A stretch of DNA of 64,000 nucleotides from assembly GCF_009914755.1 (NCBI RefSeq), contig NC_060940.1. The stretch is one strand, 5' to 3'. Every line of letters begins with the position of its first letter. Positions within the stretch are counted from its first letter, which is position 1. The notes under the pieces are model-generated. The model saw only the letters and a program-made list of their open reading frames with translations, was not told the origin of the DNA and searched no databases. Positions 38,998 through 49,447 of the stretch are shown here, in pieces. The stretch is from the human T2T-CHM13v2.0 reference genome, Homo sapiens. Both the position numbers and the translations under genes were made by a program.

Positions 38998-39024
38998 CTG
39001 TGTCTGTGTCTGTGTCTGTGTGTG
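38969..39024. repeat. (TG)n then (TCTGTG)n microsatellite
   Basis: Direct reading. Confidence 0.92.
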
Positions 39025-39499
39025 GTTTTTGGTGATGTGATTTTTAATTAGATCCTTACAATAATATGGTGAAGCTACTCATCATTGGTCCCATTAAACA
39101 GAAGCAAAAACTAGTGCTTGGAGTATCACAATAACTTGTCTAAGATTACACAGCCAGTCTGCAAAAGAGCTGGATTTCAAAATCTTCCAAGTCATCATCA
39201 GTTATGGTATTTTTAAGATCGATTTGCAGTTAACCACACAGCTTTATTACAAATTCATGCTCTCTTGATGTACTCACAGTATTTTTCAAAATTTACCTAT
39301 TGCTATCTCTCTATCTCTTTAAACTTTTTTCATCCATCCTCTGTATCTTCCCTTTTATCCCTGAATGTTTGCCCTCCCCTCTTAAGAAAAAATAAGATAG
39401 TAGCAAGCTCCCTGCTGGATTTTATAACTTTGCATACCATATATTTAGTTTAGTAATGAAAAATTCCAGCTCCAGGCGATGCATAGAATCGCATTTCTA

Positions 39500-39852
39500 A
39501 TGTTTTTTAAACAGCTATTAATGTGGTCGAGCAGTGGGTTTTTTTTTTTTTTTCCCTTCCTCCTCTATATAATCATCTGCTCAGTGGTGCGCTGTGAAAC
39601 TGAGAGTAGGAGCCAGAGGAGGAGCAAGCTGTGATTGATGGGCCAGGCCTTCCTGGCAGAAAAAGTGCCATCTGGGTTGGTTTTGGGAGCAGTCAGATGT
39701 TGAGGGGGAGGTCAGCCAGGCGGCCTCAGCCCCCCACCTTCCTCAACACCCCGATCATCCACACATTGCACAGCGCGCACACCCTCGCTCGTAATTGAGG
39801 CGTGCTTGGGGCAGATGCTTTGTGGTGTGGGACAAGAACAGCTGCTAAGTTT
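39500..39852 (+). promoter_or_regulatory. Putative internal promoter and 5'UTR of the alternative first exon
   Basis: TATATAA 39566-39572; E-boxes CATCTG 39574-39579 and 39669-39674, CAGATG 39694-39699 and 39812-39817, CAGCTG 39839-39844; C-rich box near 39729-39738; TAATTG 39792-39797; locally raised CpG and no recognisable interspersed repeat. Confidence 0.55.
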
Positions 39853-39885
39853 ATGGAGGAGAAAGGAAGCAGGATGGTGCAGCAG
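39853..39885 (+). CDS. RBFOX1: Coding part of an alternative first exon of RBFOX1 (MEEKGSRMVQQ), splicing in phase 0 to 47723
   Basis: ATG at 39853, 11 codons, then CAG|gtattt donor (GT 39886-39887). In-frame TGA upstream at 39796-39798. Joined peptide MEEKGSRMVQQ-GNQE parallels the recalled RBFOX2 start MEKKKMVTQ-GNQE. Confidence 0.78.
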
Positions 39886-40039
39886 GTATTTTTGTTTTTT
39901 TTTCCATTTAATCTTTCACTCAAAATTGCGATTTGAATGAAGCTGAAAGCTTTTCTTGTGTTAAGTCCGTGCTGTCGGTGACACGTAGCTTGCTCCTTGA
40001 ATCATGCCCGGGGAAAGGAGAGGAGTTTTGGTGAAGAGA

Positions 40040-40109
40040 GTGTGTGTGTGTATGCGTGTCTGTGTGTGTGTGTGTGTGTGTGGGCGCGCGCGCACGCGCG
40101 CACGCGCGC
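40040..40109. repeat. (TG)n followed by (CG)-rich alternating tract
   Basis: TG run 40040-40082, then GCGCGCGCGCACGCGCGCACGCGCGC 40084-40109. Confidence 0.92.
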
Positions 40110-42552
40110 TTTCTGCTTGATGTGTGGAACTGAGCTGATCTTAGAACCAGCAGGTTAATGGTGTCCTTTTGCATTTTTCTTCTTTGTTTGAATGCCCCTA
40201 GGGCATGATGCAGTTTAGCTCAATTCACTTCTGCACAAGAGGGTTTCTCTGAATATGCGCGATTTCTTGCCAGAGAAGTGGTGTAGACCATGCTCCTAAA
40301 CTAAAGTAAAACAAACTGTCAGCAAGACTGAAAACTGCAAGCAACCATCAAGAATGGATAGTTTTCCTCCAGTGAGTCCATGCTGGTGGGGGGTCCCACT
40401 GCAGGAGCCGCTGCTTTCCTGGGCTGTGTGGGCATATGTGATCAGCTGGCTTATTAGGTTTTGACAATTCCTGTGCATGTCTTCATTATAAGGGTTGAGT
40501 TAAGGCCAGAGGAGGTTCTCCACAGCAGGAAATAAACTGGGGACAAGTTAATTCCAGATGCAGAAAGGGAGGGTGTGCTCAAGAAGTTTGACTATAAAGG
40601 TGGGGAAATACAGGCGTGTGAGTGTGCACACACACATACCCACACAGGAAAATGCTTGCCTATTTTAAAGTCCACCTGGACGGCTACGAAAGCTGGTACT
40701 TTGCCTTCTCAGTGAAAGTCAGGTAGTTACATGGAAAAGAATAGACCCATTTCCTGTTCGGCCACTTAAAGATTCTTTTTCAGTTGAAATACGGTTTACC
40801 TTCAATTTTGAGCCAAAAGGTTTTGCAAACCCTGACTGGCTACCACTCTTGTTTCTCTTGTTAGTTTCTCAAAACTACTTTATTAAACCACTCAGGGCAA
40901 CAAATGGGAGAAGGGCAATGTCTTGGGGAAAAAACAACGACAACAACAAAACTCTCTCATCTTATTTTCTCTCTGACTCTGTCTCCTGAGTCCACTTCAG
41001 AGAGAAAATTCAGGGTTCAGGATATTTCAGGGACCAAAGAAATTCTCTGAGCATCAGAAGAGTGGCCCTCTTATTGCATGCATACAAGAGTCAACACACT
41101 ATGCTAATAGTCAGATTACAGTGTTTGTCTTAAAATAGCAATGATAGCCAGGCTATTTCATGCTTCAGTAAAATATTTAAATTGAAATGACTTTTTTTTT
41201 TGCTTTTATGAATCAGACTTGGTTGCATTTTAATAATCCTTTTGCTCTTGGTAACTGGAGTGAAAGCTACACGTTGGGGTGTCTTAAGTAATGACAGGTT
41301 TCCATCATCCTGCTGTCGTTGAGTTGCTCTCGTTGACTGAGAGGTTTGGTGACTGAGGACAAGGAAGTTTCTTCTCTGTTTATCCTAATAAATGTTGTTT
41401 ATTTCAAGCTTCTAGTCAGTTGTGCAGCAGCAATAGTGGGTCTTAAAGCGTGAGATCTTGGCCTTCTTTCATCCTCCTTTTGTGTATTGAGCAACAACTC
41501 AAGAAAGTCCAGGCACTGAAATTAAACGTTAAGTTTGCAAAAGCTCCTGAAGCATTTGCTTGATGATGTGGGGAACACTTGTGAGGCAGATCATCCTGCT
41601 CATCAACTAGGAACACCCACAAGCACCCTGACTCTGCAGATATCAGAAGCTCTCTCTGATCATTCCACTTATTTAGGGAAAGGTGGGGGTTTGGCATTGG
41701 AGTAGAAGAAAGAAGGCAGCTTCTGCAAATGAGGGAATGTCTAGCCAGAATGCTCCAAATAATTTTGCCTGTCACTGTCCCCTACATGAAGTTGGCTTCA
41801 GCTTCCAACCCAGGAGCCTGTTCGCGTGCCTAGGATTTGCTGTGACCTGGAGTGGAAAAGGTGCCCTTAATGTCAGTGTATTTTTCCAGAAAATACATTT
41901 CAGCCAAGCTAAGAATCCAGGAATGTCACTAGGGAGGAAACAAAGACATCTCTGGAGCCATTTGAAGGTGAAAAATAATTCCATAGGAAGTACAATGGTC
42001 TTAATTAAATATTAGCTGTAATTAGCCTAAAGTGCAAATGTTGGGAATATTAATTAGGGTCTCTCTGGAACGGCTGTCAGTGTTAATAAGTAACTGTAGG
42101 GGGTCCCACCAACATCTGTTTGAGAACTCCAGGTACAGGATGAAATCTGGAGTCCCATGTTCCTGGATGCTAACTGCAGGCTCCTTGGCTACCATGGACT
42201 CAGTCCCTAGAGCATGGTGCTCTGTGTTTGCCAGAATTGCACAACTCATGGTAGAGGTGGGTGGCTTGCTTTGGCACCAGTGGTGCCCCCAGCTGGCCCT
42301 TGCCTTTCCTTGGATAGCCTCAAGGCATTTCAAAGTCAGGCGTCAGGCTTGAGGTAGTGCAGAAGTTTCCCAGGCTGCTGCCCCACTCCTTTCGAATGGT
42401 CACCCACCCAACCTGGCCATTGGAATTGCTGGCATATTTGAATCAAATACCCTAGTCCCTGGCTTCCTCACAGGGAGTAACACACCAACAGCTAAACACA
42501 GGTCCATGGTGTATGTGATAGAGAGGGAACTGCTTATTTAAAAATGGGAAGT

Positions 42553-42862
<310 letters not shown>

Positions 42863-43050
42863 AATGAATGAATGAATGAAGTGAACTCCCCACCAGGTGA
42901 TTCTCTTGCTAGATGAGAAATGCCTTGGTTTAACTCTTGGCTTCCCTAACAACTACCTGTGACTGTGGCCTCGAATAATTATTTCCCAGCTTTGGTCTGG
43001 AGCATCTTTGATGACAAGGTAAATTGAGATTAGAGATGCATTGCATGAAA

Positions 43051-43265
43051 AGTAGGGATTCTGGACCTTGGCACTATTAACATTTGGGGCGGGACAGTCT
43101 TTTGTGGTTCAAGGTAGTCGTATACTCTGTAAGATGTTTAGCAGCATTCCTGGCCTCCACCCACTAGATGGCAGTAGCACATCCTCCCTCATTTGTGACA
43201 AAACTGTCTCCAGTCATTGCCTAATGTCCTGTGGGGAGCAATCACACCTCTGTAAGAACTACCGG
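43051..43265 (+). mobile_element. MER20 (hAT-Charlie)
   Basis: ccttggcactattaacatttgggg...aagatgtttagcagcattcctggcctccacccactagatg...tgtctccag..attgcc. Confidence 0.88.
43161..43174 (+). promoter_or_regulatory. CTCF core motif inside MER20
   Basis: CCACTAGATGGCAG matches the CTCF core CCASYAGRKGGCR. Confidence 0.55.
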
Positions 43266-43664
43266 TATGAGGCGCCCAGCACAGTGCCTGCCACCTATTA
43301 GGTTTTCTTCTGAGGACCAGTGAGGAGAAGGGGCTGCTTTTCATGGAAGTCTGAGGCCATCATGAACCTTCTGCTCATAAGCCCACTTATGCAGATTTAA
43401 AGCCTGTGTGCCTGTGAGTTTACAGGTCAAAGATCTGCGGATGGAAAGTAAATTCCCCAAAAGATTCTGACCCACTGTTTTTGCACCATTTTCAATATTG
43501 CCAGTCTCCAAGTCTAGCTATCACCCCTCTTTGGTTTGGAGAGTATACAGGCCCTTTCTCTCTCTTTCTACTTCACTGCCTGCTTTATTTCCTGCCCAAA
43601 CTACTTATGCAATAATGGCTTCTTAACTGGTGATCCCATATCTAATGACATTCTGCCACAGCTA

Positions 43665-43875
43665 TTAGAAAACATTTTCCACAAAGGACCAGATGATAGA
43701 TCATTCAGTCTTGGTGGGCTGGGCAGTCTCTGTCACAGCTATCCAACTCTGCCTTTGTAGTACAAAAGCGGCTACAGACAGTAAACAAATGAGCATGGGT
43801 GTGTTCCAATAAAACTTTATTTACAAAAACAAAATTTGGGCCAGGTTTGCCTCATGAGTCGTTTGCTAGGTCCTC
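43665..43875 (-). mobile_element. MER58A-like
   Basis: gtgttccaataaaactttatttacaaaaac, reverse complement of the 15170 copy core. Confidence 0.75.
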
Positions 43876-44894
43876 TCTTCATCCCCCTACCCTATCTCCT
43901 GCTGCCAGACTAGGCTTTACAGAGCCCAGAGGTCATTTTTCCAGCACATATTCACTTGGCAAACATTTATAAATGTCCACTTTGCAGCTAGTATGCTGTT
44001 GGACCATGGAGATGGGACAGGGAATGTGGCACAGTGTCCTGTTTTCAGGGAGCTCACAGACAAATAATCAGGCTGTGGCAGTGCTTGGTGCTGTGTGAGC
44101 TGTGGCCACCAGCTGCAGTGGAGCAGAGGGGATGGGCAACTGACCAGGTTTCAGCATCAAGGAAAGCCTGCTGGAGGAGGGACTCTTGATGCGGACTGAA
44201 GGAAGAGTAAGGACTAGTTGGGCAAGGGGGTAGGTGAGGCTTTCCAAGCTGAGGGGCAGTAAATGTGAAGACTTGATGGGGTTGAGAGGATGGAGCTCTT
44301 CTACCTTAACTGACCATAAGCTTCTGGAGGGCATGACCCTTCTCTCTTCAATACAGAGATAGCTCGAAGTCTACAAGGAGCCTTAGCTCTTTTGCAAGAA
44401 CTAGTAGGAATGGGCCACTTTTCCTGAGCTTGCTCTGCACTGATGAAAAGCCCCAGGGTTATATATGTTCCTGGTGAAAGTATCTTCTGCTGGAGGTGGA
44501 GGAGGGAAACCTTTGTCTTCATATGATCATTGTCTGTACCACTGCTTATGTGATTATTCTGTGCTTCCCTGTAAGAGTTTACACAAGTCTGCCTTTCACT
44601 TCAGAGATGGGCCAGGTAGAAGGTTGAGGAGGCAGAAACAGACCTTTGAGCAGAAGCTGCCTCTGGCACAATGAATTTCTCATCAGATGATTCCCAAGAT
44701 CCCAACATTTCTGGGGCTTTTCATCACCCATAGAGAAGTGGCATCGCTATGAAATTTCTGTACAGAAGGATATGTTCCTTGAACAGCCCAGAAAAAGAAA
44801 AGATGCTAGTTTAGTTATAAAACAGCAGAAGTTTTTTTTTTTTTTAATTAGTCAAGACCCTTTTGGTTGTAAGTAACAGAAAAAGTAGCTTAAA

Positions 44895-45041
44895 AAATGA
44901 GACAAAGGGTACAAAGTGTCAGTTTTGCAAGACAGATACATTCTGGAGATTTAAGTACAGCATGGAAACAAGAGTTAAAAATACTGTATTATATACTGGA
45001 AGTGTGCTAAGAGGATAGATCTTAAATTAAATCTCTCCACA

Positions 45042-45075
<34 letters not shown>

Positions 45076-45216
45076 TGGAGATCATGTAGAAGTGATGGAT
45101 ATGCTAATTACCTGGAATGTGGTCACTTCACAATGTATACATATGTCAAAACATCAAGTTATACACCTTACATGTATAATTTTTATGTTAATGGTATCTT
45201 AGTAAAGCTGTTAAAA
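44895..45216 (+). mobile_element. Old L1M 3' end containing (CA)n at ~45038-45073
   Basis: gggtacaaagt...ttctggagat...gtacagcatgg...caaaacatcaagtt...aaagctg. Confidence 0.75.
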
Positions 45217-45301
45217 TATGGGACATTTACTGACTTGTGTAACTACAACAAACAGGGATGGTGCTGACTGCGGGTAAAGCTGGATTCAACACTTCAAATG
45301 A

Positions 45302-45745
<444 letters not shown>

Positions 45746-46706
45746 TGATGTTTTTACAGCTGCCCATCACCGTGGAAAGAGAACTTCTTCCCCAAAACTA
45801 CAGCAAAATCCCAGGGTGACTGGGACTCAGTGGTGTGACTAGGGCTTAACGCACTAACGGACTCACTAGATAGATGTGCATGAACGCAAATCCATGGGAC
45901 TATCTCAGTGGGACCATCTGATTGGCCAGGCTGATGTCCTATGGCTCATCTCGTAGCGACTGGGAGCTGGGTTCAACTGTATCTGCACCATACAGGCTGA
46001 AAGTGGGACTGTCCCCCAAAAGGAAACTGGGGCTTTGTTGAAGAAACAGGAGTGGAGACAGACCAGCAGTATCACTGCATGTCTTCTTTGGCTTCCCAAG
46101 GATGGACAAGGTTAACTGCTCATGGATAGCAACTCAGCCTCAACATAGGCACACCCTCCATGGCCCCAGTGCTATGGGAAAATGTTAGAAAGAGAAAGAA
46201 ATGCTCGTGCCCTTTTGTTTCCAGTGGCACAGACATTTGGCGAAATTTGTCTGGAGGAGGGAAGAGCCTGATGGGAATGATTTACTTGTAAAATGTTTAA
46301 ACTTATCCTAAGCTTAGTTCTCTTCCAAGTGTCATCTTTAACATTCTAATTAAGGTCCCTTCTAAACAAATGCACCAGCTCCGTGTGCTGCTCTGAGAAC
46401 AAACTTTTTTTTTTTCCTCTCTTCTTTCTGTCATCATGTTTTTGCTGCACTCAAATTGCTTTAGAGAAAGAGGATTTCGGATGTTGGTGGCAAGTACTGA
46501 AGAGATAAGGAGAAATTCTGATATTTTTGCCCTAGTATCATTATATGAGGGCCAAAGTCACATCTAATTGACCACAGACAATAGGAGAGGCAGCTATTTG
46601 GTGTGCCTAATTGCTAAGTTTTTTTCCTCGCTCTGTCTTTCTGACTGTGTGATCCCATCTCCTGAGACCATGGAAAGTTTAGACCTTTGGGTTACCATTT
46701 CTTATG

Positions 46707-46708
<2 letters not shown>

Positions 46709-46768
<60 letters not shown>
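46709..46768. repeat. Perfect (GT)30 microsatellite
   Basis: Direct count. Confidence 0.95.
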
Positions 46769-46769
<1 letters not shown>

Positions 46770-47110
46770 GTGGTAGAACTGTGGAGGAGGAGGTAAAGAG
46801 AGAGAGCTGTTTCCTGAAATGGAAGCATTTGTATTCAGGTTTTTGTTGTGTGTGTTTTTAAAATTCTTCTGAGTTGGCTGTAATTGTCACACTGCCTGTT
46901 TTGCCTAGATCTGAAGAATGAATTGTTATATAATACTCTGTGCTCATAAAAAAATAAGGCAGGGAGGGAGAGGCATTGACTAATGAGACTGAGAGTTAAA
47001 TCCAATATTTTTCAGAAATGCTTAAAATGGGGATGTCAGAGAGGACAGTCTTTGTCCAAATTAGGCCCTGAATTTGTATCAGCTGCTTCATTTTGGCACT
47101 GGGGACATCA

Positions 47111-47175
47111 TACACGCATACACACACACAGACACACACACACACACACAACATAACACACAACCACACAGACAC
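47111..47175. repeat. Imperfect (CA)n
   Basis: Direct reading. Confidence 0.88.
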
Positions 47176-47666
47176 TGGGACCATTAAAAGGATACTCCCT
47201 ATTCCCATTATGTGAGCCAAGTCACATAAAACTTTGATTAAATTCAAATGCTTACATAAATTGTCTCTCCTCTCAAGAACACACACGTTCAATTTAGTCT
47301 CTCTTGGCACTTTAAGTATCAAATCAAGGTTCTGCTGTCACTGCAGACAACTAAATGCTCACAGCTTCCAAAATGGGAATGAAATAAAAAGGATCTGCCA
47401 AAAAAAAAAAAAAATCAATCTAGTAAAGCCACAGACCCTCATGTCTTTGAATATTAGGCTGGGTGGCTTGGAAAAAGCGACTTTATCTTTATCTTTCCAA
47501 GCCTCGGTTTCTGCATCTGTAAAATGGGGAGAAGTGATGGTTACTGTTTCCTTATAGGGTCTGGTGAAGATGACCTGAGATTGGTCCATCTCAGGCTGGT
47601 GGCACCATGGTGACCCCTAGAAAGTACGCGGGGCACGATCGTCCTGGGATCTGGGAGGAAGGTTTC

Positions 47667-47672
47667 TGCATG
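47667..47672 (+). promoter_or_regulatory. UGCAUG RBFOX-binding motif ~50 nt upstream of the exon, next to the probable branch point (tcatgAc, A at 47686)
   Basis: Exact TGCATG on the sense strand; function is inferred. Confidence 0.5.
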
Positions 47673-47686
47673 GTGGCTCCTCATGA

Positions 47687-48022
<336 letters not shown>

Positions 48023-48312
48023 TAATGGCAGCGGGGGTGCACCCCCATCTACCCAGGGACTCTGGGAAACAGATCAGTCCCTAAGCCCACCCTCATCATA
48101 CCAGCTTCCTGAAGTTTACCTCATTTCCATGCATTCATTCTTAGCGTTCATTTAAATCAACGGATTATTAATTAATTTCATTTATTTGTAAAGGGGCACA
48201 TTTATCAATTTTCTATTCCTATAGTTTTGCCTTTCTAGAATGTCATCCCAATGAAATCTCATTTTTTTGGAAAAAAAAAATTTGATGTAAGATAATTTTT
48301 CTTCAAGTCTTA

Positions 48313-48617
<305 letters not shown>

Positions 48618-49447
48618 TCTTTGTGGAATTATAATTTACATACCTTAAAATTAGTATATTTTTAGGTGTACAGTTCACTGATTTTTAGCATATTTACGGA
48701 GTTGTGCGATGATTGCCGGATGCATCTAATTTCGGAACATTTCCATCAGCCTAAATACAAATCTTGTGCCCCTTTGCAGCCACTCCTCATTCATACCTCA
48801 GAGCTCTGAACCTCGCTTCTTTACCTTAGCCTAATACATTTGAGATTCATCCAGGTTGCGGTGTTTGTCCCTGGTTTCTTCATTTTTATTGCTGGACCAA
48901 AGGGCAGGGGCTAGAAAGAGGCAGGGTGAGAGAATTTTGATGAATAAGGGAACTGTCCTGTATCTTAATGGTGACGGTTACATGACTTTATACGCCATAA
49001 AGAGTAAATTTTATTGCGTACAAATGATGAAATGGATTAGAAACAGGCATGTAAACAGAAACATTTTATCATCACTGTAAATGAAAACTGGTGTTTTGAT
49101 CATTAATCAAATATAACTCTAAATGAAAATATTTATCATAAAATTAAATAATGTTCATTTGTGTGCCACCTAAAGTAATCATGCATACCACAAAACCTGT
49201 ATGGAACATGCATTTGGGAACCTTTTTCTGCAGAATTCTTTAGAAGCTTGGGAACCCCAATCCTGTCGTCTGGAACATTTTTTGAGTGTAAGGCAATTCT
49301 GCCTCTTCGTCCTGTCCCAAGACCTCAGGAAAGCAAGTATTTGTGAAGAAGTTTATGGCTTTGAAGCATGATACATTTCCTGTGATAAAAGAAAACACTG
49401 ACTAACTTTGCTACTTGCCACCTCATTCATTTGGAGGCTAGTTTTGA

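What the first reader, a model, noticed from the sequence alone, without database searches (positions are those of the whole stretch)
39853..39891. Hidden 11-codon alternative first exon (MEEKGSRMVQQ) that splices in frame onto the RBFOX1 exon
Seen: ATG GAG GAG AAA GGA AGC AGG ATG GTG CAG CAG|gtattt, 33 nt ending at phase 0, with an in-frame stop upstream (39796). It is too short for the ORF track. Joined to 47723 it reads [23 protein letters not shown]. Recalled: RBFOX1 uses several first exons (MNCEREQLR, MLASQG...) that join at GNQE, and RBFOX2 has MEKKKMVTQ-GNQE. Inference: this is an ancestral paralog-shared proximal first exon. With only a 7.8-kb first intron it would give a much shorter transcription unit than the distal promoters and would survive deletions of the 5' exons. 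It may already be annotated as a minor isoform.
Basis: partly seen in the sequence, partly recalled or inferred. Interest (0 to 1): 0.85.

Follow-up and report, generated by a model that had tools for sequence, protein, structure and literature searches.

The report
Known proximal RBFOX1 first exon
This 11-codon stretch is the coding end of an already annotated alternative first exon of human RBFOX1, conserved from sharks to humans and shared with RBFOX2, so it is real and old but not new.

Summary
ATG at 39853 opens 11 codons (MEEKGSRMVQQ) that end at a CAG|GTATTT donor (39885/39886). An in-frame TGA lies at 39796. Splicing to the acceptor at 47723 keeps the frame into GNQE....

It is not hidden. 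The hub's RefSeq table already lists first-exon variants 39596/39602/39695-39885, with exactly this donor.

The same 11-residue N-terminus directly before GNQE/GNQD opens 37 of 120 listed database proteins. Their sources name them RBFOX1 of placentals, a marsupial, birds, turtles, amphibians, coelacanth, sturgeon, cyprinids and sharks.

In the same genome, RBFOX2 has a homologous exon, MEKKKMVTQ|GTAAG, 30 kb upstream of its own GNQE exon. That N-terminus opens 29 of 120 listed RBFOX2 proteins, including human entries. No counterpart was found within 100 kb upstream of the RBFOX3 exon.

A TATATAA box lies 30 nt upstream of the annotated start 39596, and there is no CpG island.

Still open:
- which AUG is used (39853, 39874 or 47756);
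- the tissue of use;
- which published exon name (E1E or E1F) applies.

Interest is low.

The parts
39566..39572 (+). TATATAA box, 30 nt upstream of annotated exon start 39596 and 36 nt upstream of 39602
   Evidence: It is the only TATAWAW between 39000 and 40000. There are 63 on the + strand of the whole window, so about 0.013 are expected in any 13-nt slot. That it acts as a promoter element is inferred.
39596..39885 (+). Alternative first exon of RBFOX1, longest annotated form. Annotated alternative starts are 39602 and 39695. GC 0.57, CpG o/e 0.31, so not a CpG island.
   Evidence: Hub RefSeq table ('exons of other transcripts 39596-39885, 39602-39885, 39695-39885'); composition.
39638..39703 (+). 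Upstream ORF 1 (21 codons plus stop; T at -3, G at +4). Present only in transcripts that start at 39596 or 39602.
39697..39798 (+). Upstream ORF 2 (33 codons, same frame as the main ORF, ends at TGA 39796-39798; C at -3, T at +4).
39815..39817 (+). Out-of-frame upstream ATG (C at -3, C at +4). Its ORF overlaps the main start and, after splicing, runs 77 codons into the next exon.
   Evidence: The aligned RBFOX2 position is CTG, not ATG.
39853..39885 (+). Coding part of the first exon: 11 codons, MEEKGSRMVQQ, phase-0 end. The first ATG has T at -3 and G at +4. The second in-frame ATG, at 39874 (M8), has A at -3 and G at +4.
   Evidence: orthologous N-termini
39886..47722 (+). Intron of 7,837 nt. 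Donor CAG|GTATTT matches 7 of 9 positions of the CAG|GTAAGT consensus. Acceptor is a pyrimidine-rich tract followed by cag|G.
   Evidence: The consensus is established knowledge.
47723..47965 (+). Common coding exon [16 protein letters not shown]... (81 codons, no K or R). The third in-frame ATG, at 47756 (MAQPY), has A at -3 and G at +4.
   Evidence: hub table (coding exon of NM_018723.4)

Best explanation
The 33 nt at 39853-39885 are the coding 3' end of an annotated alternative first exon of RBFOX1. It is the first exon nearest to the common GNQE exon.

How it most likely works: a TATA-type promoter without a CpG island starts transcription at about 39596/39602, with a second annotated start at 39695. 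The exon is spliced from CAG|GT at 39885 to the acceptor at 47723 in phase 0. This replaces the N-termini made from distal promoters (MNCEREQLR and others) with MEEKGSRMVQQ. The rest of the protein, including the RRM and C-terminus, is unchanged.

The exon's main role is therefore promoter choice: a separate switch that gives a transcription unit of about 203 kb instead of about 2.5 Mb. A small, conserved change at the protein's N-terminus comes with it.

The exon predates the RBFOX1/RBFOX2 split, because RBFOX2 keeps a homologous 9-codon exon in the same position.

Shown: exon boundaries, frame, annotation, orthologous and paralogous N-termini, and the TATA box position. Inferred: promoter activity, use of the first AUG (leaky scanning to M8 and to MAQPY is likely, given the contexts), and tissue specificity.
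For: - Sequence, frame, stop, donor and acceptor.
- The hub RefSeq table lists three first-exon variants ending at 39885.
- Orthologues: 37 of the 120 proteins listed begin with an 11-residue ME.K.S.MVQQ-type peptide directly before GNQE/GNQD. A further 7 of the 120 carry it internally behind a longer upstream ORF. In one search, 3 of 120 begin with it.
- Names given by the sources cover primate, seal, ruminants, pangolin, marsupial, pigeon and a passerine, turtles, frogs, salamander, caecilians, coelacanth, sturgeon, zebrafish/carp/minnow and three sharks.
- The peptide is 11 aa long in all 38 distinct N-terminal cases. Column counts: E2 37/38, K4 33/38, G5 33/38, S6 31/38, R/K7 36/38, M8 36/38, V9 38/38, Q11 38/38.
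- Paralogue: MEKKKMVTQ|GTAAGATT lies at C22:36299939-36299965(-), 30.2 kb upstream of the RBFOX2 GNQE exon. The alignment shows an identical GGTTTATGGAG block, a 6-nt in-frame indel, and ATGGT...CAGGTA.
- 26 MEKKKMVTQ plus 3 MEEKKMVTQ starts occur among 120 listed RBFOX2 proteins, including rows that sources name Homo sapiens.
- TATATAA lies at -30 of the annotated start.
- No other known RBFOX1 N-terminal first exon lies in the window. The MQHPL...FMYLQQ exon maps 214 kb upstream of the GNQE exon.
Against: - No transcript, CAGE, ribosome-profiling or peptide data could be consulted, so use of the exon in human tissue rests on the annotation alone.
- Database proteins are mostly automatic models that start at the first in-frame ATG by rule. 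M1 in 38/38 is therefore true by construction, and species in which the ORF is broken would not appear at all.
- The first ATG has T at -3, and up to three upstream ATGs precede it. The two downstream in-frame ATGs have A at -3 and G at +4.
- Casanovas et al. 2020 (PMC7214753, sections 3 and 16 read) describe most alternative first exons as non-coding. They state that transcripts from the proximal exons E1E and E1F start translation 'in exon 8'.
- No row named Mus or Rattus is among the 38. Clustering at 90% identity could hide them.
- No row named Homo sapiens carries the peptide in the lists.
- Exact MEF2, CArG or MCAT motifs are absent from -600..+50, so a muscle/heart promoter is not supported by motifs.
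Confidence: 0.82

Rival explanations
1. The exon is real but functionally a 5'UTR exon. Ribosomes mostly bypass ATG 39853 and start at the MAQPY ATG (47756) in the next exon, so the product lacks any exon-specific N-terminus. On this view the 11-codon extension is conserved for RNA-level or promoter-proximal reasons.
For: ATG 39853 has T at -3 and is preceded by up to three upstream ATGs, one of them overlapping and out of frame. ATG 47756 has A at -3 and G at +4. Casanovas et al. 2020 (PMC7214753, section 16 read) say that transcripts from proximal first exons E1E/E1F have their start codon in exon 8. In the same genome the RBFOX3 exon also carries ...AMAQPY. That MAQPY is the usual RBFOX3 start is recalled, not tested here.
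Against: The length is a constant 11 residues in 38 distinct N-termini from shark to primate, with conservative replacements (E/K/D, R/K). The indel against RBFOX2 is 6 nt, a multiple of three. The frame between the acceptor and MAQPY is kept open in RBFOX1, RBFOX2 and RBFOX3. All three upstream ATGs have poor contexts.
Confidence: 0.12
2. Translation starts mainly at the second ATG (39874, M8), giving MVQQ followed by GNQE.... Residues 1-7 would then be leader sequence.
For: ATG 39874 has A at -3 and G at +4. The M-V-x-Q core is the part shared with RBFOX2 (MVQQ against MVTQ). V9 and Q11 are invariant in 38/38.
Against: Two of the 38 peptides (named Marmota and Ictidomys by their sources) have R at position 8 but keep M1. 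Positions 2-7 are also conserved: E2 37/38, K4 33/38, G5 33/38. The ATGGAG start block is identical in RBFOX1 and RBFOX2.
Confidence: 0.05
3. A chance short ORF next to a GT, with no biological use.
For: Short ATG...GT stretches are common in any 64 kb of sequence. No expression data were available here.
Against: The donor coincides with annotated RefSeq exon ends (hub table). Orthologous N-termini occur in 37 of 120 listed proteins. A homologous exon lies at the equivalent place in RBFOX2. A TATA box lies at -30 of the annotated start.
Confidence: 0.01

Closest known systems
RefSeq RBFOX1 transcripts with first exon 39596/39602/39695-39885 (hub table, T2T-CHM13 annotation RS_2025_08)
   Same: Identical donor at 39885, and the same exon. 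The finding is the coding end of this exon.
   Different: Nothing differs in the sequence. The table does not show where those transcripts' coding regions start, so the ATG assignment was checked only through orthologous protein models.
RBFOX2 proximal first exon encoding MEKKKMVTQ (own genome C22:36299939-36299965, minus strand). Proteins P0235 and P0236 are named Homo sapiens by their sources; UniRef calls P0235 'Isoform 4'.
   Same: Position upstream of the homologous GNQE exon, phase-0 CAG|GTA donor, the ATGGAG start in an identical GGTTTATGGAG block, and the M-V-x-Q end.
   Different: 9 codons instead of 11. The intron is 30.2 kb instead of 7.8 kb. The donor GTAAGA is closer to consensus. 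The RBFOX1 upstream ATG at 39815 is CTG in RBFOX2.
Other RBFOX1 alternative first exons (N-termini ...MNCEREQLR, MLASQG...GLIQ, MQHPL...FMYLQQ) and the published names E1A-E1F (Casanovas et al. 2020, PMC7214753; Kuroyanagi 2009, PMC2777236)
   Same: All join the same GNQE exon in phase 0 and reflect alternative promoter use.
   Different: They lie outside the window. The FMYLQQ exon is 214 kb upstream of the GNQE exon, and a more distal coding exon maps to C16:6684621-6684686. I could not decide which published name fits this exon. Figures are not held, and Damianov & Black 2010, Underwood 2005, Nakahata & Kawamoto 2005 and Conboy 2017 are not held.

Membership tests
Annotated alternative first exon of RBFOX1 | 3' end coincides with an annotated exon end and a GT donor | tested here: met
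   Hub table lists exons ...-39885; CAG|GTATTT
Annotated alternative first exon of RBFOX1 | Splices in frame to the common coding exon | tested here: met
   Phase-0 donor and acceptor, with an open frame across the join. Database proteins carry exactly this join, for example P0010.
Annotated alternative first exon of RBFOX1 | Own promoter (a first exon, not an internal one) | tested here: inconclusive
   TATATAA lies at -30 of the annotated start, YR dinucleotides sit at 39595/6 and 39601/2, and there is no CpG island. No CAGE or chromatin data were available. There is no AG acceptor-like requirement to test.
Annotated alternative first exon of RBFOX1 | Transcript evidence (junction reads or full-length cDNA) in human tissue | not testable with these tools
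   No expression data are held. This rests on the RefSeq annotation only.
Protein-coding N-terminal mini-exon | Peptide conserved in sequence and length among orthologues | tested here: met
   37 of 120 listed proteins begin with it, all 11 aa long. Caveat: gene models are selected for an intact ORF.
Protein-coding N-terminal mini-exon | Codon-level signature of purifying selection, or direct evidence of initiation at ATG 39853 | not testable with these tools
   No vertebrate genome DNA other than this genome is held. The only DNA-level hint is the in-frame 6-nt indel against RBFOX2.
Paralogue-shared RBFOX proximal first exon | Homologous exon upstream of the GNQE-type exon in RBFOX2 | tested here: met
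Paralogue-shared RBFOX proximal first exon | Homologous exon upstream of the equivalent RBFOX3 exon | tested here: not met
   There are 0 strict hits, and only chance-level loose hits, in the 100 kb upstream of C17:80010704. No RBFOX3-like representative among 150 starts this way. Range and sensitivity were limited.
Heart/muscle-specific first exon 'E1E' of Damianov & Black 2010 | Identity of position with the published exon and muscle/heart-restricted use | not testable with these tools
   The paper is not held. Casanovas 2020 gives names but no coordinates in the text or in supplement 1. Exact MEF2, CArG and MCAT motifs are absent from -600..+50.

The most novel reading that the evidence does not exclude
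The proximal mini-exon may be the ancestral start of vertebrate RBFOX1 and RBFOX2, built as a graded initiation module. It has a deliberately weak first AUG (T at -3, inside a GGTTTATGGAG block that is identical in both paralogues). Two strong in-frame AUGs follow (M8 and MAQPY), and upstream ORFs precede it. One promoter would then yield three nested N-terminal proteoforms whose ratio is set by scanning conditions.

The literature I could read treats proximal first exons as non-coding. Tryptic proteomics is blind to this region: K4 and R7 are followed by no K or R until residue 115. Such proteoforms would therefore have gone unseen.
Probability: 0.2. Interest if true: 0.35.

Novelty: already known. 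Interest (0 to 1): 0.15.

Why it matters
The practical value is modest. RBFOX1 copy-number deletions in neurodevelopmental disease cluster in the long 5' region and remove only some promoters (Casanovas 2020, introduction read). A proximal promoter 7.8 kb from the first common coding exon would be spared by them, so knowing where and when it is active bears on how much RBFOX1 remains in carriers.

The comparison also shows that this is the oldest recognisable RBFOX1 start, shared with RBFOX2 and present in sharks. It shows too that the choice of AUG on these transcripts is unresolved, and that ordinary trypsin-based proteomics cannot resolve it.

None of this changes the classification. The exon is already in RefSeq, and equivalent isoforms are annotated in many vertebrates.

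Tried and rejected
- blastn of window 39400-40100 against the 100-kb paralogue regions gave only microsatellite and poly-T hits. It was uninformative and was replaced by regex scans and a pairwise alignment.
- tblastn of six other RBFOX1 N-terminal leaders against the window gave no hit better than E = 0.29, so those exons are not in the window.
- Looser regexes for an RBFOX3 counterpart gave one unrelated hit (MEITAHSPQ) on the sense strand against 2 on the antisense strand, which is chance level.
- Exact muscle-type motifs (MEF2, CArG, MCAT) are absent from -600..+50. One E-box and three GATA-like sites are at or below the window-wide expectation.
- The sigma-70/terminator scan is a bacterial model and does not apply here. 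I disregarded it.
- Rfam at gathering thresholds found nothing in the window.
- ORF listing on both strands of 39000-40600 gave only short, low-complexity ORFs, and none on the minus strand looks like a gene.
- Papers: the strings MEEKGSRMVQQ and MEKKKMVTQ occur in 0 papers of the searchable library. 'Rbfox1' + 'muscle-specific promoter' + 'heart' gave 0. 'Rbfox1' + 'exon 1E' gave 1 unrelated retina paper, seen in the listing only. In the passages read from two CNV papers (PMC6882836, PMC3765197), the deletions are described only against curated variants 4-7, at upstream non-coding 5' exons, and this exon is not mentioned.
- Not held: Damianov & Black 2010, Conboy 2017, Underwood 2005, Nakahata & Kawamoto 2005. 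Table_1.pdf of Casanovas 2020 could not be read and may give primer positions for E1E/E1F.

Full report
**Observation.** The window reads ATG GAG GAG AAA GGA AGC AGG ATG GTG CAG CAG at 39853-39885, followed by gtattt. Translating 39796-39885 gives a stop (TGA 39796-39798), then 18 codons, then MEEKGSRMVQQ. The next annotated exon starts behind tttttgatttttcag at 47723 and reads [16 protein letters not shown]... for 81 codons. A script that joined the annotated exon to 47723-47965 confirmed that the frame from 39853 stays open across the join. The intron is 7,837 nt.

**It is already annotated.** The hub's RefSeq table lists 'exons of other transcripts 39596-39885, 39602-39885, 39695-39885'. 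The exon is therefore in the current RefSeq annotation of this assembly. The table does not show where the coding regions of those transcripts begin.

**Orthologues.**
- I searched the large protein database with the GNQE exon (P0001), asking for longer proteins. Of the 120 best listed, 3 begin with MEEK[G/A]SRMVQQ directly before GNQE. The rest carry other leaders, and ...MNCEREQLR is the commonest at 101 of 120.
- I then searched with residues 1-40 of one of the three (P0010). Of the 120 listed, 37 begin with an 11-residue peptide of this type directly before GNQE or GNQD. Another 7 carry it internally behind a longer upstream ORF.
- The names given by the sources span primate, seal, ruminants, pangolin, ground squirrels, a marsupial, pigeon and a passerine, two turtles, frogs, a salamander, caecilians, coelacanth, sturgeon, zebrafish, carp, fathead minnow and three sharks.
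- Over the 38 distinct N-terminal cases the peptide is always 11 residues. Counts are E2 37, K4 33, G5 33, S6 31, R/K7 36, M8 36, V9 38 and Q11 38.
- Two caveats apply. Most rows are automatic models that begin at the first in-frame ATG by rule, so M1 in 38 of 38 is true by construction. Species with a broken ORF would simply be missing.
- No row named Homo, Mus or Rattus carries the peptide. The database is clustered at 90% identity, so this says little.

**Paralogues.**
- The window's own genome could be searched. The GNQE exon has counterparts on C22 (RBFOX2; GNQEPTTTPDAMVQPF...) and on C17 (RBFOX3...DQDATAPPEAMAQPY...).
- In the 100 kb upstream of the RBFOX2 exon, a regex for ATG...ATG-GTN-NNN-CAR|GT finds one site: MEKKKMVTQ|GTAAGATT at C22:36299939-36299965 on the gene's strand, 30.2 kb upstream.
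- Aligned, the two mini-exons share an identical GGTTTATGGAG block around the start codon, a 6-nt (two-codon) indel, and ATGGT...CAGGTA at the end.
- Among 120 listed proteins found with the RBFOX2 exon, 26 begin with MEKKKMVTQ and 3 with MEEKKMVTQ. These include rows that sources name Homo sapiens; UniRef calls one 'Isoform 4'.
- Looser patterns gave only chance-level hits upstream of RBFOX3.
- Among 150 representatives of a search of the 50%-clustered library, five start with such a peptide: four RBFOX1-like and one RBFOX2-like. No RBFOX3-like representative does.
It is not shown for RBFOX3.

**Position among RBFOX1 first exons.** None of six other N-terminal leaders found in the database maps into the window; the best tblastn E-value is 0.29. 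The MQHPL...FMYLQQ leader (a row named Mus musculus isoform 17) maps to C16:7335664-7335780. That is 214 kb upstream of the GNQE exon and outside the window. A more distal coding exon maps to C16:6684621-6684686. The exon studied here (C16:7541596-7541885) is thus the coding first exon nearest to the common exons. From 39596 to the gene end in the hub table is about 203 kb, against about 2.48 Mb for the whole gene.

**Promoter and translation signals.**
- TATATAA lies at 39566-39572, 30 and 36 nt upstream of the annotated starts 39596 and 39602. It is the only TATAWAW between 39000 and 40000, and about 0.013 would be expected in a 13-nt slot.
- The region is not a CpG island: CpG o/e is 0.31-0.58 and GC peaks at 0.59.
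- Exact MEF2, CArG and MCAT motifs are absent from -600..+50. I therefore cannot support, from sequence, the idea that this is a muscle or heart promoter.
- ATG 39853 has T at -3 and G at +4. ATG 39874 (M8) and ATG 47756 (MAQPY) both have A at -3 and G at +4.
- The longest exon form carries three upstream ATGs, all in poor contexts: 39638 (21-codon uORF), 39697 (33 codons, in frame, ending at the TGA) and 39815 (out of frame, overlapping the main start).
- The donor matches 7 of 9 consensus positions, missing +4 and +5.
- Leaky scanning to M8 and MAQPY is therefore plausible. Which AUG is used is the real open point.

**Literature.**
- Casanovas et al. 2020 (PMC7214753; abstract, sections 3 and 16, passages and supplement 1 read) describe many alternative Rbfox1 first exons in mouse. 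They say most were thought to be non-coding. They state that transcripts from the heart- and muscle-specific E1E, and from the novel E1F exons downstream of it, have their start codon 'in exon 8'.
- Kuroyanagi 2009 (PMC2777236, section 7 read) reports multiple first exons for Fox-1 and Fox-2 and a functional difference between Fox-2A and Fox-2F.
- I could not map E1E or E1F onto this exon. Figures are not held, and Damianov & Black 2010, Underwood 2005, Nakahata & Kawamoto 2005 and Conboy 2017 are not held.
- The peptide strings occur in no searchable paper.
- In the passages read from two CNV papers, deletions are described only against curated variants 4-7, at upstream non-coding 5' exons, and this exon is not mentioned.

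**Verdict.** The feature is an annotated, anciently conserved alternative first exon of a well-studied gene, and its RBFOX2 counterpart is a listed human isoform. It is already known. What remains open is which start codon is used, in which tissue, and which published name applies. Those are ordinary follow-up questions. One practical note: after K4 and R7 there is no K or R until residue 115 of the isoform, so tryptic proteomics cannot tell the N-termini apart.

Noticed in passing
window 47667-47672: TGCATG, the RBFOX binding hexamer, lies 51 nt upstream of the acceptor of the common GNQE exon. Further copies in 39000-49000 are at 40474, 41075, 43042, 45877, 46076 and 48467. The + strand of the window holds 24 in all, so this is not clearly enriched. 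It is a possible autoregulatory site.
   Followed up: partly
window about 40033-40082 (also 39540-39555): A (TG/CA)n microsatellite lies about 150 nt downstream of the donor, and a T-run lies just upstream of the TATA box. They caused all the strong blastn hits and the THTHTH antisense ORF.
   Followed up: no
G000 C16:7335664-7335780 (outside the window); protein P0354: Another RBFOX1 first-exon leader, MQHPL...MCPQLSCALTFMYLQQ, resembles the leader of an RBFOX3-like representative (MLPHSLPCPPAFLYLQQ before GNQDATAPPDAMAQPYPPAQY). A second first exon may therefore be shared between paralogues, this time RBFOX1 and RBFOX3.
   Followed up: no
L002 (G000 C17:80010459-80010710, minus strand): The RBFOX3 exon keeps an open frame upstream of MAQPY, reading (S)DQDATAPPEA behind the acceptor ccacag. 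It could thus accept a coding first exon in phase 0, although none was found within 100 kb.
   Followed up: partly
G000 C22, about 36309353 (minus strand), 9.4 kb upstream of the RBFOX2 MEKKKMVTQ exon: MDYQYPVVQ|GTAAGC, found by the loose regex, matches the ...VYCMDYQYPVVQ leader of 2 of 120 listed RBFOX2 proteins. It is another annotated RBFOX2 5' exon.
   Followed up: no
window 39815 against L007 (alignment A1, columns 170-185): About 40-60 nt upstream of the start codon, RBFOX1 and RBFOX2 share GAGG.GTG and CTGCTTTG blocks. The RBFOX1 upstream ATG (CAGATGCTTTG) is CGGCTGCTTTG in RBFOX2. With only two sequences, chance cannot be excluded.
   Followed up: no
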